DNA of 64,000 nucleotides from a virus. The notes under the pieces are model-generated. The model did not search any database. It was given only the letters and a program-made list of their open reading frames with translations, and was not told the DNA's origin. Within the stretch, counting starts at the first letter, position 1, and each line of letters opens with the position of its first letter. Shown here piece after piece: positions 8,609 to 21,517 of the stretch. The DNA lies in IMG/VR virus record IMGVR_UViG_3300027791_000009, positions 55,870-119,869 of that record. One strand, given 5' to 3'. The position numbers and the translations under genes are program-made.

Positions 8609-8612
8609 AATT

Positions 8613-8840
8613 ATGACAAGATTTCTGAAAGTTGAACAACAAGAATTTTTAATAAGAGATACGGAATCAGGTGGTATCATTAATACAAACTCAAGCGAAT
8701 ATGAGTTGTATATGAAAAGAATACAAATGCGAAAAGGTAATCTTAACCAAATGAAGTCAATGTGTAGAGAGATAAATAGTTTAAAGCAAGAGTTGTTTGA
8801 AATAAAAGATTTAATAAAAAATATGTGTAAGGATAAATAA
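8613..8840 (+). CDS. Small coiled-coil hypothetical protein
   Basis: LIRDTESGGIIN...EINSLKQELFEIKDL; tightly packed between structural genes. Confidence 0.65.
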   Translation: MTRFLKVEQQEFLIRDTESGGIINTNSSEYELYMKRIQMRKGNLNQMKSMCREINSLKQELFEIKDLIKNMCKDK

Positions 8841-8842
8841 AA

Positions 8843-10144
8843 ATGGCTGTAAGACAGGTAACAGAAACAGATAGTTTAGATAAATTACGAATAGAATTTA
8901 ACGCATTAGCGTCCTCAGATTTTGGTGATATTGCCACTCTGGATGCTACTTTATCTGCTACTTCTGTAATTGGTGCTGTTAACGAAATCAATGGTATTGC
9001 AATTGCAGCTGCTGGTTTCACATTAACAGATGGAACGAATGTACAAGGTATTGCCTCTGGTAACACATTAACCGTAGCGAGTGGTACAGGTCTTACTGCA
9101 ACGGTATCAAATCCAGATACATTAACAATCGGATTAAATACAAACTTAACTGGTCTATCAACAATTGATGTTGCAACAACAGCTGAGATTGCGAACATAC
9201 AGATTGGTACTTCTTCAATTACTTCTGCAAGTGGTACAATTGATTTTGGTAACGAACAATTAAATACAACAGGTGGTATATCTGCCGGTGGTACACTTGT
9301 TGGTGCTGGATTAACAATCAATGGTGCTTCAATGCAATTTGAAGGTGCTACTCCTAATAGTTTTGAAACTACATTACGAGTAGACGACCCATCACAAGAT
9401 AATGTAATTACACTACCTGACGCTAGTGGTACTCTTATTACTTCTGGTGATACGAATACGGTTACACAAACTATGATAGCAGATAATGCTGTAAGTACTT
9501 CACAAATTGCTGATAACTCGGTTACGATTGCAAAACTATCAGGATTTAATTCTGCAACATTAACGGTTGACACTTTAGTTGCAAATACTATTACAGGTAC
9601 TGCTTCATTATCAAGTGCTGTAGATTTAACTACTGAAAATACTCAAAACGCAACAAGATATTTAACTTTTGCTGATAGTACTTCAGGTTCAAATGTTCTA
9701 AAAGCAGATTCAGGATTATATTACAATCCATCAACAAATATTTTAACAACAACTGCTACATCAGCAAGATATGCTGACTTGGCAGAAAAGTATAAATCTG
9801 ATAGAGAATATCCAGTAGGTACCGTCTTATGTATAGGTGGCACAGCTGAGGTAACTATATGTACAGAAAATCATTGCACAAAAGTTATTGGTGTTCAATC
9901 AGAAAAACCTGCCTTTATTATGAATGGCAGTTTAGAAGGTGTTACCTCTACGGTAGCAATGACAGGAAGAGTACCAGTAAGAGTATGTGGTCCTGTAAGA
10001 AAAGGCGATATGTTAGTATCTTGTAGTATTGCAGGATGTGCTAGAGCTGAAGCAGAACCAAGAAACGGTGCATTAATTGGAAAAAGTTTAGTCAATGACG
10101 ATTCTAACGAAGAGAGAGTTATAGAAGCTGTTGTTGGTAAATAA
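8843..10144 (+). CDS. Tail fibre/whisker-like protein with C-terminal intramolecular-chaperone-like (peptidase G2-like) domain
   Basis: Thr/Ser/Gly-rich body; C-terminal RYADLAEKY...GRVPVRVCGPVRKGDMLVS. Confidence 0.6.
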   Translation: MAVRQVTETDSLDKLRIEFNALASSDFGDIATLDATLSATSVIGAVNEINGIAIAAAGFTLTDGTNVQGIASGNTLTVASGTGLTATVSNPDTLTIGLNTNLTGLSTIDVATTAEIANIQIGTSSITSASGTIDFGNEQLNTTGGISAGGTLVGAGLTINGASMQFEGATPNSFETTLRVDDPSQDNVITLPDASGTLITSGDTNTVTQTMIADNAVSTSQIADNSVTIAKLSGFNSATLTVDTLVANTITGTASLSSAVDLTTENTQNATRYLTFADSTSGSNVLKADSGLYYNPSTNILTTTATSARYADLAEKYKSDREYPVGTVLCIGGTAEVTICTENHCTKVIGVQSEKPAFIMNGSLEGVTSTVAMTGRVPVRVCGPVRKGDMLVSCSIAGCARAEAEPRNGALIGKSLVNDDSNEERVIEAVVGK

Positions 10145-10155
10145 GGAGATATATT

Positions 10156-10635
10156 ATGGACGAACAAACAATCTTATGGATTTCCAGATTAAAAGAAGAA
10201 ATCCAATCACACACTAGATACGAAGCAAGACAACTATTTTACATAGATGAAGAAGGACTTGACCGTGAGGTTAAAGACCATATGTCTTATGGAGAATGGA
10301 TAAGAGAGTACGATAGATTTAAAACTATTAAGGTGGAAGGCTTAGAAGATGTAGCCTGGTTAAAAGAAGTTTTAGACGAAGTAGTATTGAATATCACAGG
10401 AAAGAAAAGACAAGATATTCATTTATTTGTAAATCAGAAACCAGGTATTAGTTTTAAAGAACATAAAGATGATAAAGATGTTTACTTATATGTTGTCAAA
10501 GGCAAAAAGAAAGTATCTTTAGATGGTGTTATTAAACCAGTATATGATGATGAAGGAATATTCATAGAACAAGGTGTAAAACATTATGTTGAAAACGAAG
10601 CAGATACTTGGGGGTTAAGTATAGGAGTTATATAA
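10156..10635 (+). CDS. Cupin/JmjC-like metal-dependent oxygenase
   Basis: SFKEHKDDKDVYLYVVKGKK...GVKHYV gives an HxD...H facial triad; AGGAG RBS. Confidence 0.6.
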   Translation: MDEQTILWISRLKEEIQSHTRYEARQLFYIDEEGLDREVKDHMSYGEWIREYDRFKTIKVEGLEDVAWLKEVLDEVVLNITGKKRQDIHLFVNQKPGISFKEHKDDKDVYLYVVKGKKKVSLDGVIKPVYDDEGIFIEQGVKHYVENEADTWGLSIGVI

Positions 10636-11666
10636 TGAATTGGATGTTTTATTTAAAAACAACCGAAACCTGCAACTTGAATTGTAAACATTGTTTTACT
10701 TCAGGTTCAAATGGTCCTAAAGTCTATTGGAATCCAGATAAAACCATTAAGTGGTTACAAGATTTCAGAAAATACAATTTTCACAAACACGATACAGCAC
10801 ATTTAGAACTACACGGTGGCGAACCGTTTTTAGTTCCTGTGTCTGAAATGCAATATGTCTATGAGAACACAAAAGATTTGTGGATTCAACAATCAATGGG
10901 CATAACTTCTAACTTAACATTTAAACTAAAACAAGAACACATTGACTTCATTAAAGGTCCACTTAAAAATAGATGTGGAACTAGTTGGGATCCTAACATA
11001 AGATTTGCAAATGAGAAACAAGCAAACTTATGGCGTAAGAATGTAGAGACTTTAATTAGTGAAGGTGTTGATATTAAACTCTTCATATCAGTAACCAAAG
11101 ACACAATTAGAATTGAACCTATTGAATTACTTAAATGGGTTAAAGATTTAGGTGTAAAAGAAATGGCACTTGAAAGATTGACTGGAAATGGTAATGCAAA
11201 CTTGCATCCAGAGATATTTCCTAGAAATATAGAACAAGATAAGTGGTTTTTAAAAATGCACGAGCAATCTATTCAGTATAACACAAGAGATTGGTTTGAT
11301 AATGAGTTTTTTGAAACAATTTACTCAAAATTTGATACTGGTTCAACAAAAGAAGGCACTTTCTGCCGAGATTGTGAACAAAAACTATTTACACTTAACG
11401 CAACTGGCACAATAGGTGGTTGTCCTAATGCAGCTCCCGAGTTTAATTTTGGAACTATAGATGACCCTCTAGTAGAACTTATAAATAGTCCTAAGAGATT
11501 AGAAAATGTTGCTTGTGAAGTAGCAAGAAATCCTAAATGCTTTGAGTGTGAAGTATTTAAGTATTGTGGTGGCGATTGTCACCAATTAGCATGGCAAGAC
11601 GACATATGTGGCGCTCCTAAATCTCTTATGAAACACTTAAAAAAACAAAGTGAGGCGAAATGGTAA
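10635..11666 (+). CDS. Radical SAM/SPASM-domain enzyme #1
   Basis: CNLNCKHC (CxxxCxxC), HGGEP, C-terminal CFECEVFKYCGGDC...C. Start reassigned from 10608 to the ATG at 10635 (TAATG coupling). Confidence 0.9.
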   Translation: MNWMFYLKTTETCNLNCKHCFTSGSNGPKVYWNPDKTIKWLQDFRKYNFHKHDTAHLELHGGEPFLVPVSEMQYVYENTKDLWIQQSMGITSNLTFKLKQEHIDFIKGPLKNRCGTSWDPNIRFANEKQANLWRKNVETLISEGVDIKLFISVTKDTIRIEPIELLKWVKDLGVKEMALERLTGNGNANLHPEIFPRNIEQDKWFLKMHEQSIQYNTRDWFDNEFFETIYSKFDTGSTKEGTFCRDCEQKLFTLNATGTIGGCPNAAPEFNFGTIDDPLVELINSPKRLENVACEVARNPKCFECEVFKYCGGDCHQLAWQDDICGAPKSLMKHLKKQSEAKW

Positions 11667-12433
11667 CTTTAAACAACCCGATAACAAGTCAAAATATAGT
11701 TGATAGATTTGAAGAACTGGTAACAGATGTAGCAGACCACCATATTGTATGGGGTACTGATAATCTACCAGGACACTCTTCATTTACTTCTGCTGATTTT
11801 GGTGGTGTTGTTGACGGATTTGAATTAACACTAACAGGTGTGACTGGAACTTATACAGCAGGTGAAACGGTTAACTCTACAATAACTGCAACAACTGGTA
11901 TCGTAGTTAGTTATTCTAGCAATGTATTAAAATTAAGAACAATTAATCCAGGTGCTGGTCAAACAGGATTCTTACAAAACGATATTATATCAGGCACTTC
12001 TTCAGGTGCTGTAGGTACGGTTAATACTTTAGCAGTAATAAGTGCTGTATCAATTGGTATCACAGGTTCTAATATCGGTAATGCAGGTTCAGTAATTACT
12101 GCAAACAATATTTACGGTACACTAAAAGCAGAAATGAATAATTATACTAATATCAAAAATACATACGCTATAGTTAGTATGACAGGTGCAGGAACACAAT
12201 ATTCGGATACACAAATTGCACACTTAACAACTGCACAAAGAACAACATTAAATCCATCACAACCTAGTAGTTTACAACCTGGTCAAACAATTGACGATAC
12301 AAATTTAGAATCGTTTATGTCGAGCCTTGCAAACGCATATTCTACTGAAAGAGGTAACACTTATACATTAACAAAAACTATATGTCATAGTAGCTGTCAT
12401 AGTAGTTGTCACGGAAGTAGAGGAAGAAGATAA
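11660..12433 (+). CDS. Virion-like protein with C-terminal CHSSCHSSCHGSRGRR tail; candidate radical SAM substrate
   Basis: Thr/Gly/Ser-rich; the only three Cys are in the terminal (CHxS)3 repeat; overlaps the end of rSAM #1. Confidence 0.6.
   Translation: MVTLNNPITSQNIVDRFEELVTDVADHHIVWGTDNLPGHSSFTSADFGGVVDGFELTLTGVTGTYTAGETVNSTITATTGIVVSYSSNVLKLRTINPGAGQTGFLQNDIISGTSSGAVGTVNTLAVISAVSIGITGSNIGNAGSVITANNIYGTLKAEMNNYTNIKNTYAIVSMTGAGTQYSDTQIAHLTTAQRTTLNPSQPSSLQPGQTIDDTNLESFMSSLANAYSTERGNTYTLTKTICHSSCHSSCHGSRGRR
12383..12418 (+). repeat. 3 x 12-bp tandem repeat encoding CHSS-CHSS-CHGS
   Basis: tgtcatagtagc tgtcatagtagt tgtcacggaagt. Confidence 0.9.
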
Positions 12434-13098
12434 TGATTAATACTATTGTACCGATTGAATTGAAAGACTTAAAAAAATACTTTGAAGATAAGACAGAAAG
12501 TTATCTTATTGATTACGAAAACAGCACATTAAAAGGTGCTCAGTTTCTAACCTATTTAAGTAATTTAGATATACCTTGTGATATATTAAATATGGACGAA
12601 GAACTAATTAGTGAATATCTTAACACACAAATGTTAGTAAATATACCTAAATTAGAAAAAGAAATAATCGCTGTATTATTTGAACACAAGGGGTTGTCAA
12701 AGACAGATAAATATAAGAGTGTTATAGAAAAGAACAAAGAAATACTTGACAAGTGGGAAGGCAAATTAGAAAGTCTACCATTGTATAATATGTCAATCGT
12801 TGGTGAAGGTGCTTTTAATGAATTTGTTGAGAGTTATCCTAAAGACGAGACAGAAGATGTTAGAGGTATTAACTTTGTTTCATTATTAAAACACAAAGAA
12901 TTTTATAGTTATTATCAAATACAAAAAGAAGGTATTGTTAAGAACTATACGAAGTACTTTAAAGATTATATGTTTAAAGGTAAATCTTTATTTGAATATT
13001 GGGCGACAGAAAGTAATCCACTATTCTTAATGACTTGGGCAATTGCCGAAGGTAAATTTGATACAAAAGAATATTTAAAAGGTAAAGAGAAAAACTAA
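12433..13098 (+). CDS. Hypothetical protein (rSAM cluster)
   Basis: 221-aa ORF coupled by TAATG to the CHxS protein; no recognised motif. Confidence 0.7.
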   Translation: MINTIVPIELKDLKKYFEDKTESYLIDYENSTLKGAQFLTYLSNLDIPCDILNMDEELISEYLNTQMLVNIPKLEKEIIAVLFEHKGLSKTDKYKSVIEKNKEILDKWEGKLESLPLYNMSIVGEGAFNEFVESYPKDETEDVRGINFVSLLKHKEFYSYYQIQKEGIVKNYTKYFKDYMFKGKSLFEYWATESNPLFLMTWAIAEGKFDTKEYLKGKEKN

Positions 13099-13099
13099 T

Positions 13100-14215
13100 A
13101 TGCTACACTTATTTAATAAAGTCTATTTAGCGTTTGACGATTCAATTGATTGTCATACAAACAGATATGTAATATCAGCAGAAACTGGTAATGAAATGCA
13201 CCAGGAACTGCAAACTACATACAGAGGAACTTTAATTAACTATTCACACAATGTTAATGCAATGGCAGGTAAGTATACTGACTTAACTGGTTTCTTTGAA
13301 GATGTAAAATTAAAACAAAGTACTCTAGGTACTAAAGTTATTATTTACTGCGATAGTGAAGCATACTTAAACTTATCAGTAACCTGGTTAAAAACTATGT
13401 TACCATTTGTTGACCAAACAGCAGTACAGAAGTTTTTAGATATTAATTTACACCACGAAAAAATTATTGCAAATACACAATTGCAACCTACTCACACGCT
13501 AGCGCTAACAAAAATTAATGCTGGTCTAGGAGATGTTGCAGGATATTTTAATGTATTACCTACACTTGATTTAGATAGAATTAAAGCTCTTAATTTAAAT
13601 TTCTCAATTGAATTATTATTAGGCGAATACTTTGCAGGTGCTGATACTCACCAAGCAAACTTATTGTCTACTTGGCATTTATTCTTAAAAAGATTTTATA
13701 AAGAAGTATTAACAGATAGTAGAGAAGGTGCTGCTCTAAATCTTTTGAATACTAATCAACAAACTGCATTAGGTTATACTAGTGATGATGTTGATTTAAA
13801 TAATGACAATCCATTTTCAGGTATTACACCATTAGCACCATTTGCTGACGAAGATGTATTTACGCAAAAACCTACTGCAAATGTAGGTGCTGTAAATATT
13901 GCAAACATTGACGGTCTTTCAACAGACAAACAAACTGCATTGAAAGCATTAATTAAAGACCTATATGATTTCCAAAACTCTCCGGATCCTGATTACTTTA
14001 TGAACCATTTAGATAAAGCTTGTGCTTCAAGTTTATCTTCTACTGACTTTGATACAATTATAACTGAAACCGTGAATAGTCCATCTAGTCTATCTTTTAT
14101 TCCTAGATTTGATATTGGAAATATTAATTATACATTTTTACAATATCTCTTCTCATTAAAGAAATCTAACGATACAGACAAACTAGGAAAATACAGACTA
14201 TTCGCAAACTCATAG
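13100..14215 (+). CDS. Hypothetical protein (rSAM cluster)
   Basis: 371-aa ORF starting 1 bp after the previous stop; no recognised motif. Confidence 0.7.
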   Translation: MLHLFNKVYLAFDDSIDCHTNRYVISAETGNEMHQELQTTYRGTLINYSHNVNAMAGKYTDLTGFFEDVKLKQSTLGTKVIIYCDSEAYLNLSVTWLKTMLPFVDQTAVQKFLDINLHHEKIIANTQLQPTHTLALTKINAGLGDVAGYFNVLPTLDLDRIKALNLNFSIELLLGEYFAGADTHQANLLSTWHLFLKRFYKEVLTDSREGAALNLLNTNQQTALGYTSDDVDLNNDNPFSGITPLAPFADEDVFTQKPTANVGAVNIANIDGLSTDKQTALKALIKDLYDFQNSPDPDYFMNHLDKACASSLSSTDFDTIITETVNSPSSLSFIPRFDIGNINYTFLQYLFSLKKSNDTDKLGKYRLFANS

Positions 14216-14223
14216 GAGTTTAA

Positions 14224-15276
14224 ATGCGAGAGTTTTTAATAGACCCCAAAAGAGACCCAGAGCAAGAGTACACTATTCATTTATTTGAATTTTGTAATTT
14301 GCGTTGTAATTTCTGTTGGCAGAACCACGACAATAAAATCGGTGTTGATAATGTGGTTGACAAACTTCCTTCTATAGAAAAATTTATCTCAAAAGAAATG
14401 TATATGAAGGTCACCTTTAATATTATGGGTGGCGAAGTCTTTGCACCTGCAATCTATAACAAAGATTTAAATGACGGATATAAACTTCTAGTAAAAGGCA
14501 TAAAAAAGATATGTCAAAAACACAATAAAGAATTTTCAATCAATTGGGTGTCTAACTTGGTTACCTCAGATGAAGGTAATGAACTTATTATGGACTTACT
14601 CACTTGGTCCAGAGAAGAAGATATACCTAGTAGACTTACAACAAGTTATGACCCACGAGGTAGATTTAATAAAAAAGACTTTGAGATATTTAAATCTAAT
14701 GTAGAATTTTGGGGTGATGAAGTAACCTGTTTTTCTTGTTTACTTACAAAGCCTAATATTAACTTTTATTTAAATGAAGGTGATGAATACTTTGACTATC
14801 TGTATAAACAAGGTAAGTATATTTACTTTGATTATTATATGCCAGATGAACACGCAAAGTTTAATATGCCTGGCGATGAACTATTATTAAAGTTTTTTAA
14901 ACATTGTGTTGACAAATATCCTAATGTTCATCCTGTTAGAGATTGGATATTTAACAAAAAGAATTATGCAAGTTGTAGAGTTTCAAAACTTGTATTAGCA
15001 GATGGTACATTATGTCAATGTGGTAACCTTGTACAAGAAGAACAAGATATAAGTCAATACAAGTCGCCCATTAAACCAAGAGACAATAGTATAATAGAAA
15101 ACTCTTTCCTAGAGAAGTATAATTGTAGTAGTTGTGAATTTTTAGATAGATGTACACTTGGCTGTTTTATGAACCATGATTATAGATACAAGGAGGAGTT
15201 GGATGAATGTGTTTACAAGCTTACGCACCGATATATCGAAGATGTACGAGTACAGCGAAACTATATCGCAAACTAA
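14224..15276 (+). CDS. Radical SAM/SPASM-type enzyme #2
   Basis: CNLRCNFC, MGGE, C-terminal CSSCEFLDRCTLGC...C. Confidence 0.85.
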   Translation: MREFLIDPKRDPEQEYTIHLFEFCNLRCNFCWQNHDNKIGVDNVVDKLPSIEKFISKEMYMKVTFNIMGGEVFAPAIYNKDLNDGYKLLVKGIKKICQKHNKEFSINWVSNLVTSDEGNELIMDLLTWSREEDIPSRLTTSYDPRGRFNKKDFEIFKSNVEFWGDEVTCFSCLLTKPNINFYLNEGDEYFDYLYKQGKYIYFDYYMPDEHAKFNMPGDELLLKFFKHCVDKYPNVHPVRDWIFNKKNYASCRVSKLVLADGTLCQCGNLVQEEQDISQYKSPIKPRDNSIIENSFLEKYNCSSCEFLDRCTLGCFMNHDYRYKEELDECVYKLTHRYIEDVRVQRNYIAN

Positions 15277-15835
15277 ATTAGGCTATAATTTTCCTAAACA
15301 TATCGAAGTACAACTAGATTACTTTCCTGTTGAGAAACCATATCTTCCTAGAATAGATGGTAGACGAGCACATATGTTTTTATGGTTAGGCAAGAAAGAA
15401 GAGGATCCTGAACTATACGAGATTGCACAAAAAACAAAAGGTGAGAGACAATGGGTTCAAAATGGTACGCCTAGCACTTATATTAAGGGCGTAGGTATGT
15501 TTCATATCTATAATGAGTATGTTATAGTCGGTTCTTTAAAATATGCAGGATACATGAAGAACAGACCTCCAACAGAAAACAGAAAACTAATTAGACAAAT
15601 GTGGTGTGATACGATAAACATATTTAAAGGTAGAGATATATTATGTCCGTCTGGTACTTACTTTGATTGGTTACACCTGACAATGAATCAAATGAGAGCA
15701 CAGAAAGAACCATATCATAGAGAAATAATGTGGCAGTTTGGTTTTGACAAAGTTAAAGAAGGTAAACTAAAAGATTACTGGATTAGAAATAAAGAATCTA
15801 CTACAGGATTGAACTGGATAGGAAAATGGATTTAA
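15242..15835 (+). CDS. Hypothetical protein (rSAM cluster)
   Basis: Track ORF 15176-15835; the in-frame ATG at 15242 reduces the overlap with rSAM #2; start uncertain. Confidence 0.55.
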   Translation: MYEYSETISQTKLGYNFPKHIEVQLDYFPVEKPYLPRIDGRRAHMFLWLGKKEEDPELYEIAQKTKGERQWVQNGTPSTYIKGVGMFHIYNEYVIVGSLKYAGYMKNRPPTENRKLIRQMWCDTINIFKGRDILCPSGTYFDWLHLTMNQMRAQKEPYHREIMWQFGFDKVKEGKLKDYWIRNKESTTGLNWIGKWI

Positions 15836-16920
15836 TAATTAAACCTACTGAACTTTGTAATTTCAAATGCTCATTTTGTTCTAGTACGCAGCTTACAGAT
15901 GAGAAAAAGAACTGGTTAAAACATGACCAGATATTTCGTTTTTTAGAAAGATTCCCAGAAACAAAAACAATCATAGTAAATGGTGGTGACCCATTAATGA
16001 TGGAACCTAATTACTATTGGAAGATTATTGATTGGTTAGATGAAAGAGAATATACTACTTCACTTGCATTAACGACAAACTTATGGCCGTTCTATAAGAA
16101 ACCTAGTAAGTGGGTTGACTTATTTAATAACGAAAGAGTTGGTATCACAACTTCTTTTCAATATGGTGGTGGTAGATTAAAAGGTGACTATTCTGAATTT
16201 ACAGAAGAGGACTTTTATAAGTGTTCAGACGCAATGTTAGAACATTGTGGTTATAGACCAGACTTTATATCCGTTATTACAAGAGAGAATGAACACAACG
16301 CAATAAAGAATGTTGAACTTGCAAAGAAGATGTCCGAACAGAAAATACCTGAAGGCACATTACATAACTTCTGGAGAGAAGAGAAGACAGGTGTAGAATG
16401 TAAATTGAATTATGCAATGGCAAGTGGCGAACAAAAAGAGCCGTTTTTGTTATCAGATATATATGAGAAGTATGTAGAGATTTATAAGGCAGGTCTAGCA
16501 CCTTGGGAGTTTAATACTAGACAGATGATGTTAGCAATAAATGATACTGCTACAAGTTGTCCGTTAAGTAGAAAATGTGATGAAGGTATAAGATGTTTAC
16601 AACCAGATGGTGACTACTATAGTTGTGGTGCATTTGGTGATGATAAAGACAAAGCGATAGACTTTGAAGAAGAAATGAAAGGTAAGTTTTTTACACCTTT
16701 ACAAGATGACTTAAATTTATCTACAATGAAGAAAAGTTGCTATAGTTGTCCTATGTTTAACATATGTAATGGTTGTAGAAAGACCGTGAAAGATTATAAA
16801 GAGGCAGGAGTTGTAGAGAAACATTGTGAGAAGATGAAAAGAATTGGAAAAGATATTTTGGTTGCAAATAATAAATCACATATAGAAATGACACCTTATG
16901 AGAGAGAATATGTTAGTTAA
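15826..16920 (+). CDS. Radical SAM/SPASM-type enzyme #3
   Basis: IKPTELCNFKCSFC, NGGDP, YYSCG, C-terminal CYSCPMFNICNGC...C. Confidence 0.9.
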   Translation: MDLIIKPTELCNFKCSFCSSTQLTDEKKNWLKHDQIFRFLERFPETKTIIVNGGDPLMMEPNYYWKIIDWLDEREYTTSLALTTNLWPFYKKPSKWVDLFNNERVGITTSFQYGGGRLKGDYSEFTEEDFYKCSDAMLEHCGYRPDFISVITRENEHNAIKNVELAKKMSEQKIPEGTLHNFWREEKTGVECKLNYAMASGEQKEPFLLSDIYEKYVEIYKAGLAPWEFNTRQMMLAINDTATSCPLSRKCDEGIRCLQPDGDYYSCGAFGDDKDKAIDFEEEMKGKFFTPLQDDLNLSTMKKSCYSCPMFNICNGCRKTVKDYKEAGVVEKHCEKMKRIGKDILVANNKSHIEMTPYEREYVS

Positions 16921-17362
16921 GAATAATGTAATGACAAGTTTAGAACTCAATCATATGATTGCTGAACTAGGTAATCTAGGTAAAGAATATCCTATCTATG
17001 AGAAGAATGTTCACAAGAAATTACCAGACGACTGGAATTGGGTAGATAGTATTTGTAAATTAAATGTACCTGACATAAAACATTGTATTGTTAGATATGT
17101 TATTTCTGTAAATAGTAAAAACGAAGAAAAGAATATTATAGGTTTTCATACAGACAGCGATGTAAAAGGAGAGAAGACTATTATATTATATCTACAAGGT
17201 GATTTAAATAAAGGTGGACAAATACAAGTTGAAGATAAGACATATGACTTTAGACAAAACGCAATGTTTATTATGGACTCTCATTTAGTACATAGGGCAA
17301 TGCCTTATTGGGGAGAAAAGACAAGACTTGCAATTAAATGGAGATGGACAAGTGAGGGGTGA
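16898..17362 (+). CDS. 2OG-Fe(II) oxygenase
   Basis: FHTD...IILYL...GG...HRA...R jelly-roll motif; may start at the second ATG (16910). Confidence 0.7.
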   Translation: MRENMLVKNNVMTSLELNHMIAELGNLGKEYPIYEKNVHKKLPDDWNWVDSICKLNVPDIKHCIVRYVISVNSKNEEKNIIGFHTDSDVKGEKTIILYLQGDLNKGGQIQVEDKTYDFRQNAMFIMDSHLVHRAMPYWGEKTRLAIKWRWTSEG

Positions 17363-17873
17363 ACACGATTTATCAAATCTGGTAATAAATGGAGTGTGGC
17401 CACATAAAGACCTTGCACCATTTAAATTCTTTGAAGGTATACAAATACCTTTTGTAGAAACAGATAAAGAGTATACGATTGCTGTACATACTGAAAAGGT
17501 AGCACACGCACTCGCCACAACCCACAAATATTTGGGTGATAAATATATTAGTAAGGTGTCTAGTAAATACGAATTACACGGACGACCAAACATTGTCAAT
17601 GGTGTAGACTATGAAAGTACACTATGGCACAATGACTTGAAAGAAGGAGCTAACATTGCTATACTAATGTACTTTACAAATGCCTGTAATGAAGAACAAG
17701 GTGGTTCTTTATCAGTAAGACATAAACAAACAAAGTCATTGTCTTGTTGGTTATATCCAGGTAAGAACGATTTAATATTTTTAAATCATAGTAAAGTATG
17801 GGAACACAAAGTTGGTAAATTTAAATTAATTAACAATGAACGAATTGTAGGATGTTTTAATTATAATATATGA
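17328..17873 (+). CDS. 2OG-Fe(II) oxygenase
   Basis: WHND...ILMYF...GGSL...EHKV...R; start uncertain. Confidence 0.65.
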   Translation: MQLNGDGQVRGEHDLSNLVINGVWPHKDLAPFKFFEGIQIPFVETDKEYTIAVHTEKVAHALATTHKYLGDKYISKVSSKYELHGRPNIVNGVDYESTLWHNDLKEGANIAILMYFTNACNEEQGGSLSVRHKQTKSLSCWLYPGKNDLIFLNHSKVWEHKVGKFKLINNERIVGCFNYNI

Positions 17874-18430
17874 AAAATAAAAAATTTGAAAACGGCAGAA
17901 TACACGCCTCACAAGAACAAGATTTAGATTATTCAAATGGGTATCTAGCTCTATCAGTAAGTCCATTTGACAAAGACTTTGACATTGAAGTTGAGAAAGG
18001 TGTATTACCTCATTGCCATGAATTTATTAGAAAAGGTTTTCTTCCAATATCAAGTTGCGAAGGACATTTTACAAAGAAACACCATATGCCATTTTATATA
18101 ATGTTGGCGTTAGGTGGTAAAAACAAATTAGATAGAATAACAGATATCATTAATAAAACAAAACATATATCTGGTATATCATATAAAATAAAAGAACAAC
18201 AAGCAAATGTAAAGGGTGAACTATTAGAACGAGTAGATTACACTTTAGATAAAGAACAAGAGTATGCTGAACTGAATAGATTGTTTATGAGAAATCATAT
18301 TGACTATCATTATCTATGGATAGGACTATTTGAAAAAGAAACAATTTTAAGAAATATTTTGTTTAGTAGAAGTAAAAGAATGTTATTAAAGTCTATTGAG
18401 GAATTGAATTATGACGAAGCGGAAAATTAA
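17870..18430 (+). CDS. Hypothetical protein with SSCEGH motif
   Basis: 186-aa ORF overlapping both neighbours; GFLPISSCEGH. Confidence 0.6.
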   Translation: MKNKKFENGRIHASQEQDLDYSNGYLALSVSPFDKDFDIEVEKGVLPHCHEFIRKGFLPISSCEGHFTKKHHMPFYIMLALGGKNKLDRITDIINKTKHISGISYKIKEQQANVKGELLERVDYTLDKEQEYAELNRLFMRNHIDYHYLWIGLFEKETILRNILFSRSKRMLLKSIEELNYDEAEN

Positions 18431-19382
18431 TCTATCAATCAATCCATCTTATTTTTGTAATTTTAGATGTAATTGGTGTTATCTTACGCCTGACCAATTA
18501 GGTGATAATAAATGTATTGACCACTTTAAATTAAGTGAACTATTAAATGAAGTACAAACTCATAGAGACATAGAACACATTGATTTATATGGTGGTGAGA
18601 TAGGTGTATTAAAAGAAGACAACCTAGAAAAGATTACTAACGCAATTAAGATATATTACAAAGACAAGATTAATATAAACACAAACTTATCTATGGTAAG
18701 AAGTGAGTTTATGAATCCTGATTATTTTATAAGTGTTAGTTATGATATGGAGACCAGAGAGAAACACGAACAAGTTTATGATAATATGAGAACTTTGCCT
18801 GTTGAGTTTTCTGTTTTAATGTTGGCAACACCAGAAGTTATGAAAATATCAACACAAAGTATTTGGTCAAAGATGATTAAATTAGGTGTAGATAATAAAA
18901 ACTTTAAAGGATTTGAAATTAAACCTTATAGTACAAATCAAGCAAATCAATTAGGTGCGACACACGCTGACTTTGAAGACTTTATAATAAAGATGATAGA
19001 AGAATTTAAAAGTGTAAAAACAAGAGAAGGATATCAGCAAAATAAATTTGCATTTATTAATGAAGAGAACATAAAAGATTCTCTTAATCATCAATACAAC
19101 GCATATAGTGATGACCACTTATATATTACACCTAATGGTAAATTTGCTGTATTAGATTTTGATAAAGATGATAATGAGTATTTTTTAGAACTTGATAGTT
19201 TTGCTGATTACGAAGTATGGTGTCAAAAAGAGAAAGAACAAAATATTTCTGATATATGTCGTAAGTGTGAATATTTAGGTAGATGTTTAACTGAACACTA
19301 TAGATATGTTAAAACTCTAAAAGATGGTTGCAATGGATATAGGTATCTGTTAGATACTTATAGTTTTAGATATGGCAAATAG
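18411..19382 (+). CDS. Radical SAM enzyme #4 with Cys-rich C-terminus
   Basis: CNFRCNWC, YGGE, C-terminal CRKCEYLGRCLTEH...C. Confidence 0.85.
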   Translation: MTKRKINLSINPSYFCNFRCNWCYLTPDQLGDNKCIDHFKLSELLNEVQTHRDIEHIDLYGGEIGVLKEDNLEKITNAIKIYYKDKININTNLSMVRSEFMNPDYFISVSYDMETREKHEQVYDNMRTLPVEFSVLMLATPEVMKISTQSIWSKMIKLGVDNKNFKGFEIKPYSTNQANQLGATHADFEDFIIKMIEEFKSVKTREGYQQNKFAFINEENIKDSLNHQYNAYSDDHLYITPNGKFAVLDFDKDDNEYFLELDSFADYEVWCQKEKEQNISDICRKCEYLGRCLTEHYRYVKTLKDGCNGYRYLLDTYSFRYGK

Positions 19383-20166
19383 AGCGTTTCTTATAGGCAA
19401 TGGTCAAAGTAGAAAAGGTTTTAAATTTTCTACTATTCAAGGACGAGGTGTTATCTTAGGTTGTAATAATCTGTACAAAGATTTTGCACCTGACATTTTA
19501 GTTGCAATGGACCATCCTGTTATGCACAGCATTTATCATTCAGGTTATAGTTATACGGCTAAATGTTATTTTAGAGATTGGAATCCTGTACCACACGAAC
19601 ATTACGAGAATATGGTAAATGGTTTCTTTCCTGGGTATAGACATATAAGAGCAATTAGGAATTCAGGTTTACTTGTAGAAAATCAAAGAGTAGGTTCTAA
19701 TAGTTTTGTTTTGCACGGATACAATGATAAAGAAACAGGAAAGAATATGGTCAACATTAGTTGGTTGACAGGTGATAAAGTAAAAAGTTTTACAGATTTA
19801 GTTGACGGTGGTGACGAGTTAACTTGGGCAACAGGTCCTGCAAGTGGTTTTGTTGCTTGTAAAGAAGTAGCAGAATTGAAAGAAGTTTACCTAATAGGAC
19901 ACGACATATATAGTATGTCAAATAAATTTAATAACATATATGCTGGACAACCTTATTACAAGTCTGATAAACACCCTAGTCAATATTACTTACAAAATTG
20001 GATATTACAATGGCGTCAACTCTTCAAGTCGTATCATTCGGTAAAGTTTTATAAAGTAAATAGACAGAATATGTTAAATGTTAATATTCCGGAATGGAAT
20101 GAATGTAAGAATGTGGAGTATATAAGTTATGAGAGAATGGAAACTCAAACAAGAAGTATATCATAG
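19372..20166 (+). CDS. Putative glycosyltransferase-like (Maf/DUF115/sialyltransferase-like fold) protein
   Basis: AFLIGNGQSR...GCNNLYKDFAPDILVAMD...ATG...VYLIGHD pattern. Confidence 0.5.
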   Translation: MANRAFLIGNGQSRKGFKFSTIQGRGVILGCNNLYKDFAPDILVAMDHPVMHSIYHSGYSYTAKCYFRDWNPVPHEHYENMVNGFFPGYRHIRAIRNSGLLVENQRVGSNSFVLHGYNDKETGKNMVNISWLTGDKVKSFTDLVDGGDELTWATGPASGFVACKEVAELKEVYLIGHDIYSMSNKFNNIYAGQPYYKSDKHPSQYYLQNWILQWRQLFKSYHSVKFYKVNRQNMLNVNIPEWNECKNVEYISYERMETQTRSIS

Positions 20167-20539
20167 ATTAAATCCTACTCATAAAGATACATTGAATGAT
20201 AAGGAGATATATCTTATATGGGAAGATAATGATATTATTCTTAATGCGAAAAGACATTGGGTAGAACAAGTCGAAAGATTTATCTATCCAGCAAAGAGTT
20301 ATTGTGTGGCGATATGTTATGCAAAGTGGATAGAGAGAGATTATGGTGATAAGTTTTACGATTTGTTAAACGACAAGGACTTGTTATTTGGCAATGACCC
20401 ATACTTTGAAGTATATAAAGGAAAGGAACACATTTATGACCCAATCATAAAAGCGTTTCCTAAAGATGAACAAATGGGAATGATACCTGATATTAGAGAC
20501 TATTATGAAAAAGAAATTAGATATGATGGCAAAATCTGA
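20129..20539 (+). CDS. Hypothetical protein
   Basis: 136-aa ORF closing the cluster. Confidence 0.6.
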   Translation: MREWKLKQEVYHRLNPTHKDTLNDKEIYLIWEDNDIILNAKRHWVEQVERFIYPAKSYCVAICYAKWIERDYGDKFYDLLNDKDLLFGNDPYFEVYKGKEHIYDPIIKAFPKDEQMGMIPDIRDYYEKEIRYDGKI

Positions 20540-20551
20540 TATAAGAACGCT

Positions 20552-20559
20552 TATAAATA
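20552..20559 (+). promoter_or_regulatory. T4-type late promoter
   Basis: Intergenic TATAAATA. Confidence 0.8.
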
Positions 20560-20578
20560 ATAATACAAGGAGATAATT

Positions 20579-20815
20579 ATGGCAATTAAGATAAATGGTA
20601 AAGATTATGATGAAGAGAAGTTTGACGATAGAACTAAAAATTATGTTATCGCTAGACAAGAGTTAGTACAGAATAAAGCGAGAGTTGAAGTTGAACTTGA
20701 AAAAATTGATGTGTTAGTTAGATACTACAATGCTAAGATTTGTGAATTTCTAGGTATTGATCCAACTGCTCCAAAAGAAGAAGAAACTCAAACAGAAGAA
20801 CCGAAAAAAGATTAA
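20579..20815 (+). CDS. Small coiled-coil hypothetical protein
   Basis: AGGAG RBS; late promoter upstream. Confidence 0.7.
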   Translation: MAIKINGKDYDEEKFDDRTKNYVIARQELVQNKARVEVELEKIDVLVRYYNAKICEFLGIDPTAPKEEETQTEEPKKD

Positions 20816-20819
20816 ATAA

Positions 20820-21161
20820 ATGGCTGCAATAGCAAATCTAAGAATAGACCAAGGAACTACATTTTCCTCAAATATAACACTTGCAGGAAATGATGGTGCC
20901 GCTTGGGACCTAACAGGACATACCGTTGACGCTAAAATGGCAAAGGGGTATGAGAGTACAAAGACTAGGATAGCGATGTCTACGACCGTAGCAAACCCTG
21001 CTACAGGCATTATAACACTATCTTTGACTTCTGCTCAATCTAGTGCCTTGGATGCTCCAGCAAGATATGTTTATGATGTAGAGGTTACGAGAACTAGCGA
21101 TAGTGTAGTAACCAGGGTTATTGAAGGTATAATAACCGTTCGTCCTAATGTGACCGTTTAA
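20820..21161 (+). CDS. Small virion structural protein (beta-sandwich type)
   Basis: NLRIDQGTTF...G.ITLSLT..Q...RYVYDVE...RVIEGIITV pattern of marine myovirus structural proteins. Confidence 0.65.
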   Translation: MAAIANLRIDQGTTFSSNITLAGNDGAAWDLTGHTVDAKMAKGYESTKTRIAMSTTVANPATGIITLSLTSAQSSALDAPARYVYDVEVTRTSDSVVTRVIEGIITVRPNVTV

Positions 21162-21198
21162 TTATTTTAATACTATTAGTTTTTGAATACCCTTCGGT

Positions 21199-21206
21199 TA
21201 TAAATA
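21199..21206 (+). promoter_or_regulatory. T4-type late promoter
   Basis: Intergenic TATAAATA. Confidence 0.75.
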
Positions 21207-21229
21207 TTAACAATTAAGGGAGACTAAAA

Positions 21230-21487
21230 GTGTCGCAAATTAAAGCAAGAATAGATTCAACGATAAGTAGACCGCAACAAGTGTCGGTTACTATGCCTGC
21301 AGGTGCAGCCGCTCAAACCGCTGTAACCAACTCTACTTTGAAATTTAGATTAATGGCAGATGTAGACGCTTCAACCTTAGCAGATGGTAGTATGATTCAG
21401 TACTCTGCAACAAGTGATAAGTTTGTTGTGAGAGACGAGATTTCGACTACTACTGGTTCAATAACATTGAACGGTGGTTCATTTTAA
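21230..21487 (+). CDS. Small structural-type hypothetical protein
   Basis: GTG start with GGAG RBS; ends LNGGSF, similar to the IDGGLF end of the next gene. Confidence 0.6.
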   Translation: MSQIKARIDSTISRPQQVSVTMPAGAAAQTAVTNSTLKFRLMADVDASTLADGSMIQYSATSDKFVVRDEISTTTGSITLNGGSF

Positions 21488-21517
21488 GTTTAAGGTAACA
21501 AAAGAGAGAGTTAAGAT

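What the first reader, a model, noticed from the sequence alone, without database searches (positions are those of the whole stretch)
10156..20539. Phage-encoded multi-radical-SAM cluster: candidate RiPP-like system for modifying a virion protein
Seen: 13 tightly coupled genes inserted among tail/baseplate genes. They include four CxxxCxxC radical SAM enzymes with Cys-rich SPASM-like C-termini (10635, 14224, 15826, 18411), a cupin, two 2OG-Fe(II) oxygenases, a glycosyltransferase-like ORF, several unknowns, and one protein with a Cys/His/Ser repeat tail. Known: rSAM-SPASM enzymes are typically peptide/protein maturases (ranthipeptide, triceptide, His-Xaa-Ser and CXXX-repeat systems), and cupins and 2OG oxygenases tailor RiPPs. 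Inference: this is a complete post-translational modification pathway carried by a lytic T4-like phage and expressed with the late genes. I know of no characterised example of this arrangement.
Basis: partly seen in the sequence, partly recalled or inferred. Interest (0 to 1): 0.92.

Follow-up and report, generated by a model that had tools for sequence, protein, structure and literature searches.

The report
Radical-SAM cassette for Cys-His-tailed protein
A marine T4-like phage carries, among its baseplate and fibre genes, four radical-SAM enzymes that always travel with one small protein ending in an invariant Cys-His-x-Ser repeat tail; the same set occurs in giant soil phages and predatory bacteria, which suggests an undescribed enzymatic finishing step for a host-contact protein.

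Summary
The cassette is real. I count 14 ORFs at 10156-20539, not 13. They include four CxxxCxxC radical SAM enzymes. Two of these, rSAM1 and rSAM3, have the complete seven-Cys SPASM set. There is also a cupin, two sub-threshold 2OG-oxygenase-like ORFs, and a 257-aa protein ending CHSSCHSSCHGSRGRR. The "glycosyltransferase-like" label found no support.

The main result is comparative. The ending C-H-x-S-C-H-x-S-C-H-x-[S/A]-R-x-R-R-stop is invariant, while the rest of the protein diverges to about 22% identity. It lies beside orthologues of the same enzymes and two unknown families (unk221, unk136). This holds in 21 of 21 related marine phage contigs that carry rSAM1, in four jumbo phages I examined, and in cellular loci of Bdellovibrionota, where fibre-like genes with a Peptidase_S74 chaperone domain sit next to it.

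The enzymes match peptide/protein-maturase models best. anSME is the only full-length solved relative. None reaches any named family's cut-off.

Best reading (about 0.55): a RiPP-like maturation system that acts on the C-terminal tail of a folded protein linked to host-contact fibres. The chemistry, and whether the protein is in the virion, are inferred.

The closest characterised analogue is the HXS defence system, but this cassette is not a member. Earlier follow-ups of this scan reached the same reading on three other genomes.

The parts
8843..10144 (+). 433-aa fibre-like protein directly upstream of the cassette. Its Cys-rich C-terminal ~130 aa recur beside the cassette elsewhere.
   Evidence: The C-terminal part matches the ORF upstream of the cupin in Phosso and Atu_ph07 (40-43% identity). 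It also matches the end of the 1945-aa giant protein that precedes the tail genes in L066/L067. No Pfam family. PHROGs of unknown function.
10156..10635 (+). Small cupin (159 aa)
   Evidence: Cupin_2 30.9 bits, cut-off 27.2. Homologue directly before rSAM1 in all 4 jumbo-phage loci.
10635..11666 (+). rSAM1, a radical SAM/SPASM enzyme (343 aa from the ATG at 10635; the ORF listing starts it at TTG 10608)
   Evidence: CxxxCxxC motif. SPASM TIGR04085 33.1 bits, cut-off 27. Seven-Cys SPASM set invariant in A2. anSME 4k36/4k37 is the only full-length PDB match (E 1e-5). 1023 database clusters at E<=1e-10.
11480..11487 (+). TATAAATA, a T4-late-promoter-like octamer inside the 3' end of rSAM1, 172 nt before the tail-protein ATG
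   Evidence: The same octamer lies 176-183 nt upstream of the tail gene in 17 related loci and 13-35 nt upstream in 3 more. In total, 20 of the 24 tail genes that have at least 300 nt of upstream sequence carry it. That it acts as a promoter is inferred.
11660..12433 (+). CHxS-tailed protein (257 aa), the presumed substrate
   Evidence: Alignment A4 (28 sequences): the only invariant residues are M1 and the tail (C242 H243 S245 C246 H247 S249 C250 H251 R254 R256 R257). AF2 model pLDDT 86.2. Residues 52-129 form a small beta-barrel also found in phage baseplate and fibre proteins.
12383..12430 (+). The 16-residue tail CHSSCHSSCHGSRGRR, the presumed modification site
   Evidence: It is the only such motif in the 119,869-bp record.
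12433..13098 (+). unk221, a conserved unknown family that follows the tail gene or lies near it
   Evidence: phrog_20767, E 5e-57, unknown function. A1 alignment has 13 invariant residues. AF2 pLDDT 88.6. No solved relative found.
13100..14215 (+). unk371, an unknown protein present in marine lineages and a few others
   Evidence: No Pfam, NCBIfam or PHROG family.
14224..15276 (+). rSAM2, radical SAM with a SPASM-like C-terminus
   Evidence: CxxxCxxC motif. Radical_SAM 24.1 bits and SPASM 19.8 bits, both below cut-off. Orthologues at 32-33% identity in all 4 jumbo-phage loci.
15176..15835 (+). unk219, an unknown ORF found only in the marine lineage. It overlaps the rSAM2 3' end, so the true start may be later.
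   Evidence: No family hit.
15826..16920 (+). rSAM3, radical SAM/SPASM, the most conserved enzyme of the set
   Evidence: Radical_SAM 29.6 bits, cut-off 29.5. 52-62% identity to the jumbo-phage orthologues. SPASM Cys set invariant in A3. anSME full-length match, E 4.7e-7.
16898..17362 (+). 154-aa 2OG-oxygenase-like ORF (weak support)
   Evidence: Asp_Arg_Hydrox E 0.016. HxD...H seen in the translation. Present only in the closest relatives.
17328..17873 (+). 181-aa 2OG-Fe(II) oxygenase-like ORF
   Evidence: 2OG-FeII_Oxy_3 25.8 bits, cut-off 27. Homologues in most marine loci and several Bdellovibrionota loci.
17870..18430 (+). unk186, an unknown ORF
   Evidence: No family hit. Close relatives only.
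18411..19382 (+). rSAM4, radical SAM with a partial (twitch-like) Cys-rich C-terminus
   Evidence: CxxxCxxC motif. Radical_SAM 25.6 bits. 39-43% identity to the jumbo-phage orthologues.
That label is not supported.
   Evidence: phrog_30607, unknown function. No Pfam or NCBIfam hit. Marine lineage only.
20129..20539 (+). unk136, a conserved unknown family that is part of the universal core
   Evidence: phrog_20737, E 3e-38. 31-42% identity in all 4 jumbo-phage loci. Present in Bdellovibrionota loci.

Best explanation
This is a maturation cassette for a protein, RiPP-like in logic. Its core is a cupin, four radical SAM enzymes (rSAM1-4; at least rSAM1 and rSAM3 have two auxiliary Fe-S clusters), one or more 2OG-type oxygenases, and two unknown families (unk221, unk136). 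Together they covalently modify the invariant C-terminal (Cys-His-x-Ser)x3-Arg-x-Arg-Arg tail of the small folded protein encoded after rSAM1.

The most likely chemistry is radical H-abstraction on Cys, Ser or His side chains within each C-H-x-S unit. This would give intra-tail C-S or C-C cross-links, or Cys/Ser oxidation as in anSME, followed by hydroxylation. The product would be a rigid, basic tail that may also bind metal.

In the phage, the protein is made late. It probably joins or assists the baseplate/fibre apparatus. In Bdellovibrionota, the same system serves a surface-fibre locus.

Shown: the gene set, the invariant tail, the co-occurrence and the genomic neighbourhoods.
Inferred: that the tail is the substrate, the chemistry, and any virion or fibre role.
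For: 1. Tail invariance against a diverging body. In A4 (28 proteins from phages and Bdellovibrionota, identity to the window protein down to 22%) the only invariant residues besides M1 are C242 H243 S245 C246 H247 S249 C250 H251 R254 R256 R257. 59 ORFs in the fetched loci end in CH..CH..CH..R.RR.

2. Co-occurrence.
- All 4 examined isolate jumbo phages (SURPRISE13, Phosso, Atu_ph07, pPa_SNUABM_DT01) have cupin, rSAM1, a tailed protein, unk221, rSAM2, rSAM3, rSAM4 and unk136.
- 21 of 21 IMG/VR loci that contain rSAM1 have the tailed gene.
- Of 27 prokaryote-genome loci found by the tail DNA motif alone, 23 have cassette genes within 8 kb. For two more (L044, L049), the enzymes lie 4.7 kb downstream on the same contig.
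- Of 117 viral loci found by the motif alone, 92 have a cassette gene within the locus.

3. Gene order and strand differ between lineages. The linkage is therefore not just inherited synteny.

4. Enzyme type.
- rSAM1's best NCBIfam hits are DynA, anSME and PapB (E about 1e-11, full length), and it carries a SPASM domain above cut-off.
- Profiles of rSAM1 and rSAM3 match anSME, a protein-modifying SPASM enzyme, over their full length. It is their only full-length PDB hit.

5. Repeat-number variants behave like modular cores. L051 and L055 have four units. Dysosmobacter L050 has five CHxS(CHxS)CHSNV(PV) modules before the final ...CHSARGRR.

6. Link to host-contact structures.
- The cassette follows the baseplate wedge, a giant structural protein and a fibre-like protein here and in Atu_ph07/Phosso.
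- The window protein carries a beta-barrel insert whose best matches are phage baseplate, tail and fibre proteins. Examples: 9f4a_AY Z 7.3, rmsd 2.2, 69 aligned; 32 BFVD hits at E<=1e-3.
- In both Bdellovibrionota loci examined (2 of 2), Peptidase_S74 fibre-like genes adjoin the cassette.
- Attai et al. 2018 (PMC6102473, passages read) state that most virion proteins found by MS are encoded in clusters that include 'CDS 170-215'. gp170 is the tailed protein.

7. A conserved late-promoter-like TATAAATA lies before the tail gene.

8. Precedent. In the HXS system, radical SAM enzymes mature a HxS-repeat protein (PMC13128918; abstract and section 9 read).
Against: - No modification has been observed; everything rests on genomic association.
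- No enzyme reaches a named family's cut-off (best 42.6 bits against 450).
- No RiPP recognition element or peptidase was detected.
- Three Cys-His pairs could simply bind metal without any covalent change.
- Virion presence is not demonstrated. The Atu_ph07 protein list is in Supplementary Table S5, which I could not open, so 'CDS 170-215' is only suggestive.
- The S13 and FLC6 papers list virion proteins that do not include the tailed protein's homologue. Those lists are largely annotation-based.
- In one phage lineage (tandem tail genes after a giant protein) the enzymes are not adjacent. All 25 of the 117 motif loci without a cassette gene in the locus belong to this lineage. Of 5 such records checked whole, 3 have rSAM3/rSAM4 elsewhere on the contig. 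The other 2, fragments 15% and 22% complete, have none.
- Bdellovibrionota have no virion, so 'virion protein' cannot be the general function.
- The structural matches to baseplate modules are modest (Z 7.3 at best, within the range the tool calls common).
Confidence: 0.55

Rival explanations
1. Small-molecule, cofactor or peptide factory. The tailed protein is a sacrificial precursor with a large 'leader'. Its C-terminal core is modified and then cut off to give a free peptide, metallophore or redox cofactor, as PqqA gives PQQ and MftA gives mycofactocin. The product would help replication or predation rather than form part of a structure.
For: - The core sits at the very C-terminus and is invariant, as with the PQQ and mycofactocin precursors (comparison from my own knowledge).
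- SPASM radical SAM enzymes plus oxygenases resemble those pathways.
- The body of the protein is homologous across all systems (A4), as a leader would be.
- The Dysosmobacter protein has several core modules separated by short SNV(PV) linkers, like multi-core precursors.
- The system exists in cells without virions.
Against: - No peptidase, exporter or consumer enzyme was recognised in the conserved core.
- The body is a confidently folded 125-309 aa domain. In this phage it carries a module shared with baseplate and fibre proteins.
- The cassette sits in structural-gene modules in at least four phage lineages and next to fibre-like genes in both Bdellovibrionota loci examined.
Confidence: 0.17
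2. The tail is an unmodified metal-binding or Fe-S-binding motif, for example on the axis of an oligomeric fibre in the way His-rich motifs bind metal in T4 fibre tips. The radical SAM enzymes and oxygenases work on something else, such as another virion protein, a sugar or a nucleotide.
For: - Three Cys-His pairs are classic metal ligands.
- The AF2 model leaves the tail at low confidence, 54-66 pLDDT in the last two blocks.
- The N-termini of the radical SAM enzymes also hit MoaA and viperin-type models.
- Some carrier cassettes include extra enzymes: two genes annotated dihydrofolate reductase in SURPRISE13 and a B12-binding radical SAM protein in G003.
Against: - The two Ser positions and the R-x-R-R end are as invariant as Cys and His. 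Metal binding alone does not require this.
- The MoaA and viperin hits cover only the N-terminal radical SAM core, whereas the anSME, DynA and PapB alignments are full length.
- The tight gene linkage of the tail with four orthologous enzymes persists across rearranged loci.
Confidence: 0.15
3. Counter-defence or infection-entry factor. The matured basic His-rich tail protein is a phage answer to envelope-level defences. It could mimic or antagonise HXS-type HxS-repeat effectors that block DNA entry, or it could escort DNA through the periplasm.
For: - The tail contains three H-x-S triads and a polybasic end.
- HxsA uses basic HxS repeats, matured by radical SAM enzymes, to bind incoming DNA in the periplasm (PMC13128918, section 9).
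- The location beside baseplate and fibre genes suits an ejected or tip protein.
Against: - No sequence relationship to HxsA, HxsB, HxsC or HxsD above noise.
- The system's presence in Bdellovibrionota chromosomes beside fibre genes is not explained by counter-defence.
- There are no experimental data.
Confidence: 0.08

Closest known systems
HXS antiphage system (HxsA effector with His-Xaa-Ser repeats, radical SAM enzymes HxsB and HxsC, HxsD; Li et al., Nat Commun 2026, PMC13128918; abstract and section 9 read)
   Same: Several radical SAM enzymes mature a folded protein, not a short peptide. That protein carries short repeats containing His-x-Ser and basic residues. In HxsA, the Ser, His and Ser of the modified SHRSS motif are each essential. 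Here, Cys, His and Ser of each unit are invariant.
   Different: - The enzymes are not orthologous: TIGR03978 scores 31.7 bits against 370, and TIGR03977 scores 29 against 267.9.
- No HxsA or HxsD hit.
- No peptidoglycan-binding domain.
- The repeats here are C-H-x-S at the extreme C-terminus with an R-x-R-R end.
- There are four radical SAM enzymes plus a cupin, oxygenases and two unknown families.
- The system is carried by phages and predatory bacteria, not found as a defence island.
Anaerobic sulfatase-maturating enzyme (anSME/AtsB; PDB 4k36-4k39; TIGR03942)
   Same: It is the only solved protein that aligns over the full length with the rSAM1 and rSAM3 profiles. It is a SPASM enzyme without an N-terminal recognition domain. 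It acts on a Cys or Ser of a folded protein substrate. The last tail unit, C-H-x-S-R, has Cys four residues before Arg, as in the sulfatase C/S-x-P/A-x-R motif (motif recalled from my own knowledge).
   Different: - Scores are far below the family cut-off (41.8 against 349.45).
- There is no sulfatase.
- The position that is P or A in the sulfatase motif is G/S/N/R/V/T here.
- Four different enzymes are involved, not one.
Radical SAM/SPASM RiPP maturases (ranthipeptide PapB, dynobactin DynA, three-residue cyclophane formers YhhB/FxsB/XyeB/AmcB, sactipeptide CteB)
   Same: They are the best-scoring NCBIfam models for rSAM1 and rSAM3. The N-terminus matches CteB 5wgg. They act on short repeated motifs near a precursor's C-terminus, such as the Cys-X3-Asp units of PapA (recalled).
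   Different: - All scores are about 10% of the cut-offs.
- No RRE/PqqD domain was found.
- The substrate is a folded protein of 125-309 aa.
- No leader peptidase or exporter was found.
- The genes are embedded in virion structural modules.
QhpD/QhpC of quinohemoprotein amine dehydrogenase (recalled from my own knowledge; not searched here)
   Same: A SPASM radical SAM enzyme installs several Cys thioether cross-links inside a small protein subunit that stays part of a larger assembly.
   Different: There is no amine dehydrogenase context, and the target motif is different.

Membership tests
Radical SAM superfamily (PF04055) | CxxxCxxC cluster motif and a Pfam score at or above 29.5 bits | tested here: met
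   The motif is present in 4 of 4 enzymes. Only rSAM3 reaches the cut-off (29.6). rSAM1, rSAM2 and rSAM4 score 23.0, 24.1 and 25.6.
SPASM domain (TIGR04085) | C-terminal seven-Cys motif for two auxiliary 4Fe-4S clusters; score at or above 27 bits | tested here: met
   rSAM1 scores 33.1 bits. The full Cys set is invariant in A2 and A3. rSAM3 scores 24.5 and rSAM2 19.8, both below cut-off. rSAM4 has only a partial CxxCx5C pattern and no hit.
HXS (His-Xaa-Ser) system | HxsB- and HxsC-type radical SAM enzymes (TIGR03978, TIGR03977) at their cut-offs | tested here: not met
   31.7 bits against 370, and 29.0 against 267.9.
HXS (His-Xaa-Ser) system | An HxsA-type effector and an HxsD partner | tested here: not met
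   The tailed protein has 0 NCBIfam and 0 Pfam families at E<=0.1. No cassette protein hits an HxsA or HxsD model. H-x-S triads are present (three of them), but inside C-H-x-S units.
Anaerobic sulfatase maturase (TIGR03942) | Equivalog score at or above 349.45 and a sulfatase substrate with C/S-x-P/A-x-R | tested here: not met
   41.8 bits. No sulfatase gene was seen among the cassette ORFs. The last tail unit only partly resembles the motif.
Ranthipeptide (PapB, NF047865), dynobactin (DynA, NF041298) and cyclophane (YhhB/FxsB/XyeB/AmcB) maturases | Score at or above the family cut-off (340-450 bits) | tested here: not met
   Best scores are 42.6 (DynA), 41.5 (PapB) and 32.1 (YhhB) bits.
   Not among the 25 families shown, of 50 (rSAM1) or 43 (rSAM3) that matched. 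The lower rows were not displayed. The precursor had no NCBIfam hit.
Canonical RiPP cluster | Short precursor peptide, a RiPP recognition element (PqqD-like), and a leader peptidase or exporter | tested here: not met
   The precursor is 125-309 aa and folded. No PqqD, peptidase or transporter family appears in the 14 ORFs. unk221 and unk136 remain unassigned.
Virion structural protein (for the tailed protein) | Detected in purified particles | not testable with these tools
   There is only an indirect statement in PMC6102473 (virion-protein cluster 'CDS 170-215').

The most novel reading that the evidence does not exclude
Phages from several unrelated lineages and predatory Bdellovibrionota share a dedicated enzymatic toolkit. 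It builds a new kind of cross-linked, possibly metal-binding Cys-His 'warhead' on the C-terminus of a small adaptor protein of their host-contact fibres. Radical-SAM protein chemistry would then be a structural ingredient of how predators of Gram-negative cells attach to or breach the envelope. unk221 and unk136 would be new substrate-handling folds.
Probability: 0.2. Interest if true: 0.9.

Novelty: new variant of a known kind. Interest (0 to 1): 0.78.

Why it matters
Post-translational chemistry on phage particles is almost unexplored. Radical SAM genes in phages are usually dismissed as 'auxiliary metabolic', 'DNA repair' or 'antibiotic' genes, as in the papers seen.

Here the candidate substrate is defined to the residue. 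The enzyme set is orthologous and widespread: at least 117 viral contigs carry the exact motif, and rSAM1 has 1023 database clusters. Several carriers are culturable (Atu_ph07, S13, RSL2/RSF1, FLC phages, pPa_SNUABM_DT01, Phosso). The hypothesis can therefore be tested directly by mass spectrometry and genetics.

If confirmed, it would add:
- a new radical-SAM protein modification;
- two new protein families with confidently predicted but unmatched folds;
- an unexpected molecular link between phage adsorption organelles and the fibres of predatory bacteria.

Tried and rejected
- Megablast of the whole cassette against the phage collection found no match. tblastn of the full tailed protein against phages also found no match. 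Its relatives were found only through synteny and the motif.
- phmmer of rSAM1, rSAM3 and the 433-aa protein against PDB gave nothing useful.
- unk221: the PDB profile search gave 0 hits. Foldseek against PDB gave none at E<=1e-3. VIA wide gave a best Z of 4.3, over residues 1-54 only. The ESM Atlas was uninformative for unk221 and unk136. I do not claim the folds are new, only that no relative was found.
- Tailed-protein model: Foldseek against PDB gave none at E<=1e-3. Only the inserted barrel finds partners.
- Complex prediction of unk221 with the last 62 residues of the tailed protein returned 'no answer' (score 0.02, mark 0.32). I use it neither for nor against binding.
- Sigma-70 promoter and terminator scans gave counts near shuffled expectation: 76 against 69.8 for promoters, 9 against 4.4 for terminators. 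I did not use them.
- RNA-library contigs from 4 runs of 4 studies cover part or all of 8000-22000. One 18-kb contig in X15 spans the whole stretch. These are contigs, DNA carry-over is not excluded, and transcription is not shown. Bins without cover in X19 and X20 mean nothing.
- Literature searches:
  - 'radical SAM' + 'jumbo phage' + 'cupin';
  - 'radical SAM' + 'Atu_ph07';
  - 'RSL2' + 'RSF1' + 'radical SAM';
  - 'radical SAM' + 'bacteriophage' + 'RiPP' + 'phage-encoded';
  - 'radical SAM' + 'Bdellovibrio' + 'SPASM' (0 papers);
  - 'radical SAM' / 'tail fiber' / 'post-translational modification' / 'phage' / 'thioether';
  - 'pPa_SNUABM_DT01'.
  These found only papers that list the genes (PMC11898562, PMC8066314, PMC5468394, PMC8541153, PMC5332604; passages read). 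None interprets the cassette or mentions the tail. Subscription journals (for example the RSL2/RSF1 paper in Virology 2016) and all supplements were not searchable, so a prior description cannot be excluded.
- PMC12801897 and PMC11242549 were opened and are irrelevant to this cassette.
- L068 shows rSAM1, rSAM3 and rSAM4 but no tail motif. About 12 kb of that contig shows no + strand ORF of 90 aa or more. I did not resolve this.
- L060 and L045 (motif loci without enzymes in view) were not followed up. L045 ends at the tail gene.

Full report
WHAT IS IN THE WINDOW

The window comes from an IMG/VR virus record of 119,869 bp, estimated 82% complete. It is a T4-like marine myovirus. The tail sheath is 65% identical to Pelagibacter phage Mosig and 55% to HTVC008M. 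Baseplate wedge, tail-fibre, sheath and major head protein families are recognised.

Between 10156 and 20539, the ORF listing gives 14 co-directional ORFs that mostly overlap or nearly abut. In order they are:
- a cupin;
- rSAM1;
- a 257-aa protein ending CHSSCHSSCHGSRGRR;
- unk221;
- unk371;
- rSAM2;
- unk219;
- rSAM3;
- a 154-aa ORF and a 181-aa ORF, both 2OG-oxygenase-like;
- unk186;
- rSAM4;
- unk264;
- unk136.

All four radical SAM proteins begin within about 25 residues of a CxxxCxxC motif. Pfam and NCBIfam support is modest but consistent:
- Cupin_2 is above cut-off.
- Radical_SAM is above cut-off only for rSAM3.
- The SPASM domain is above cut-off for rSAM1.
- The 2OG hits are just under cut-off.
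- Nothing supports a glycosyltransferase.

These four are the only radical SAM genes in the record, and the tail motif occurs only once.

THE CASSETTE IS A CONSERVED, MOBILE UNIT

tblastn of rSAM1 against 50,697 phage records hit 15 records, all jumbo phages of Ralstonia, Burkholderia, Agrobacterium, Sinorhizobium and Pseudomonas, at 41-51% identity. I examined four of them: SURPRISE13, Phosso, Atu_ph07 and pPa_SNUABM_DT01. All four have cupin, rSAM1, unk221, rSAM2, rSAM3, rSAM4 and unk136 in one block next to virion, baseplate or spike genes.

The protein encoded directly after rSAM1 in all four, and in the window, ends in C-H-[ST]-S-C-H-[STA]-S-C-H-x-[SA]-R-[GS]-R-R-stop. The rest of each protein differs so much that tblastn on the full-length protein had found nothing.

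A scan of IMG/VR with rSAM3 gave 30 marine loci at 60-96% identity. All 21 that include rSAM1 also encode a tailed protein, and three loci encode two in tandem. The other 9 loci start downstream of rSAM1. Three of them start inside the tail gene.

rSAM1 alone has 1023 database clusters at E<=1e-10. None is named beyond 'radical SAM protein with 4Fe4S-binding SPASM domain'.

SEARCHING FROM THE TAIL INSTEAD OF THE ENZYMES

Of the 27 genome loci:
- 23 contain cassette enzymes within the 8-kb stretch.
- For two of the four exceptions (L044, L049), the enzymes lie 4.7 kb further along the same contig.
- L045 ends at the tail gene, and L060 was not followed up.

Of the 117 viral loci:
- 92 contain at least one of rSAM1-4, unk221 or unk136.
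- The other 25 all belong to one lineage, in which two short tailed proteins follow a giant structural protein.
- Of 5 such records searched whole, 3 have rSAM3/rSAM4 elsewhere on the contig. The other 2, at 15% and 22% complete, have none.

Linkage is therefore very strong but not always immediate.

NOT ONLY PHAGES

Many genome hits are Bdellovibrionota MAGs, some on very large contigs.

In G001, the cassette sits on a 1.29-Mb contig. Acyl-CoA dehydrogenase, serine dehydratase and YchF lie on its two sides, and a 413-aa Peptidase_S74 (endosialidase-chaperone) fibre-like protein is adjacent.

In G003, the cassette is flanked by carbamoyl-phosphate synthase and by two proteins that combine a pilin-type N-terminal methylation motif with a Peptidase_S74 domain. 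It also contains a B12-binding radical SAM protein.

A profile of unk221 found single matches in 11 of 301 sampled Bdellovibrionota genomes. The system is therefore sporadic in that phylum. Gene order and strand differ from the phage versions.

I reached this before consulting the scan's earlier notes. Those notes show that follow-up agents on three other genomes came to the same picture.

THE TAILED PROTEIN

An alignment of 28 tailed proteins from phages and Bdellovibrionota (A4) shows they are homologous throughout, at 22-91% identity to the window protein. The only invariant columns besides the start Met are eleven tail residues.

Variants exist:
- L051 and L055 have four units.
- The Dysosmobacter protein has five modules with SNV(PV) linkers.

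The AF2 model is confident (pLDDT 86.2, pTM 0.80). It has an alpha/beta core and a helix and strand just before the tail. The tail itself has low confidence. Specific to the marine 257-aa form is an inserted beta-barrel at residues 52-129. Its best matches are:
- a Klebsiella phage KP1 baseplate/tail chain (Z 7.3, rmsd 2.2, 69 aligned);
- the JBD30 baseplate (Z 5.9);
- in BFVD, many cyanophage structural, fibre and baseplate proteins.

These Z values are in the range the tool calls common, so they are supportive only.

The top BFVD hits over the whole core are short family members and Atu_ph07 gp170.

Attai et al. 2018 report that most MS-detected virion proteins are encoded in clusters that include 'CDS 170-215'. 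gp170 is the tailed protein. The table that would settle this is a supplement I could not open.

THE ENZYMES

rSAM1 and rSAM3 keep the complete SPASM Cys set. Their best NCBIfam matches are peptide/protein maturases: DynA, anSME, PapB, a methanogen peptide-modifying family, and cyclophane formers. All score at roughly a tenth of the family cut-offs.

Profile searches of PDB give anSME as the only full-length match for both. The ChlB, CteB, MoaA and viperin hits are confined to the N-terminal core.

So these are new SPASM subfamilies. Their nearest solved relative modifies a Cys or Ser on a folded protein.

None has an N-terminal recognition domain, and no PqqD-like element was found. unk221 (model pLDDT 88.6) and unk136 are universal partners without any detectable relative. 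They are candidates for substrate handling, but that is inference.

EXPRESSION SIGNALS

All 14 TATAAATA octamers in the window are on the + strand, although the count is not above chance (14 against 9.8 expected). One lies inside rSAM1, 172 nt before the tail gene. The same octamer is kept at 176-183 nt in 17 related loci whose rSAM1 is down to 69% identical, and at 13-35 nt in three others. In total, 20 of 24 testable tail genes have it. This suggests a separate late promoter that boosts the tailed protein relative to the enzymes, as expected for a stoichiometric product.

The stretch occurs in at least 14 marine DNA runs and in contigs from 6 RNA libraries. Contigs cannot prove transcription.

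INTERPRETATION

The data fit a protein-maturation system in which the invariant tail is the substrate of the four radical SAM enzymes and the oxygenases. The product appears linked to fibre-type host-contact structures in phages and in predatory bacteria.

The chemistry is open. My preferred guess is cross-links within each C-H-x-S unit, or Cys/Ser oxidation as in anSME.

Rival readings cannot be excluded without mass spectrometry:
- a released peptide or cofactor;
- a plain metal site with the enzymes acting elsewhere;
- an entry or counter-defence factor.

COMPARISON WITH WHAT IS KNOWN

The closest characterised system is HXS. In it, HxsB/HxsC with HxsD mature the HxS-repeat protein HxsA and install a +8 Da change on SHRSS (PMC13128918; abstract and section 9 read). 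The logic is the same, but every membership test failed.

The papers on carrier phages only list the genes. They call them accessory, DNA-repair or metabolism-boosting. Nishimura et al. noted T4-like environmental genomes with many radical SAM genes, in the context of Fe-S metabolism.

I found no description of the tail motif or of the cassette as a unit in the searches listed under Tried and rejected. Supplements and subscription journals were out of reach.

VERDICT

This is a real, widespread and well-delimited system: a new variant of radical-SAM protein/peptide maturation with a residue-level hypothesis that can be tested in culturable phages. The same system has already been flagged by this scan on other genomes.

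Noticed in passing
window 1001, 11480, 20552, 21199, 23994, 28260, 31511, 38316, 41914, 44061, 52676, 53360, 56107, 57291: All 14 TATAAATA octamers are on the + strand and most sit just before genes, as T4-type late promoters would. The total count is not above shuffled expectation.
   Followed up: partly
L050:3907-4266 (-), Dysosmobacter segnis contig: A tailed protein in a Bacillota isolate carries five CHxS(CHxS)CHSNV(PV) modules before the final ...CHSARGRR. unk221, rSAM2 and rSAM3 homologues lie beside it. It looks like a multi-core precursor.
   Followed up: partly
L065:4596-5642 (+) and L065:6251-7261 (-), G003 Pseudobdellovibrio: Two fibre-like proteins next to the cassette combine a type IV pilin-like N-terminal methylation motif with a Peptidase_S74 chaperone domain. 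A 575-aa B12-binding radical SAM protein (L064:14152-15879) lies inside the cassette.
   Followed up: no
window 8843-10144; L066:177-6014; L002 ~10815-11237; L003 ~10994-11383: The Cys-rich C-terminal ~130 aa of the 433-aa fibre-like protein recur immediately upstream of the cassette in Atu_ph07 and Phosso. In another phage lineage they form the end of a 1945-aa giant protein that directly precedes two tailed genes. This domain may be the partner of the tailed protein.
   Followed up: partly
L004 (pPa_SNUABM_DT01) 16488-21965; L001 (SURPRISE13) 18421-19598: Carrier cassettes vary in their accessories. The Pseudomonas phage has six annotated radical SAM genes, and the Burkholderia phage has two genes annotated dihydrofolate reductase inside the block.
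   Followed up: no
L068 (G303:C81) ~3200-15000: About 12 kb upstream of cupin/rSAM1 shows no + strand ORF of 90 aa or more and no tail motif, unlike the sister contigs L066 and L067. It may be masked, inverted or a genuinely different arrangement.
   Followed up: no
window 8000-22000 in run X15: One 18,072-letter contig from a metatranscriptome library spans the whole stretch at word depth 131 with 49 differing letters. This could be DNA carry-over or very abundant phage RNA; the two cannot be told apart.
   Followed up: no
window 16898-17362: The 154-aa ORF matches phrog_274, labelled 'DNA endonuclease V' (E 8e-12), yet it shows an HxD...H pattern and a weak Asp/Asn-hydroxylase Pfam hit. The PHROG label may be misleading.
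   Followed up: no
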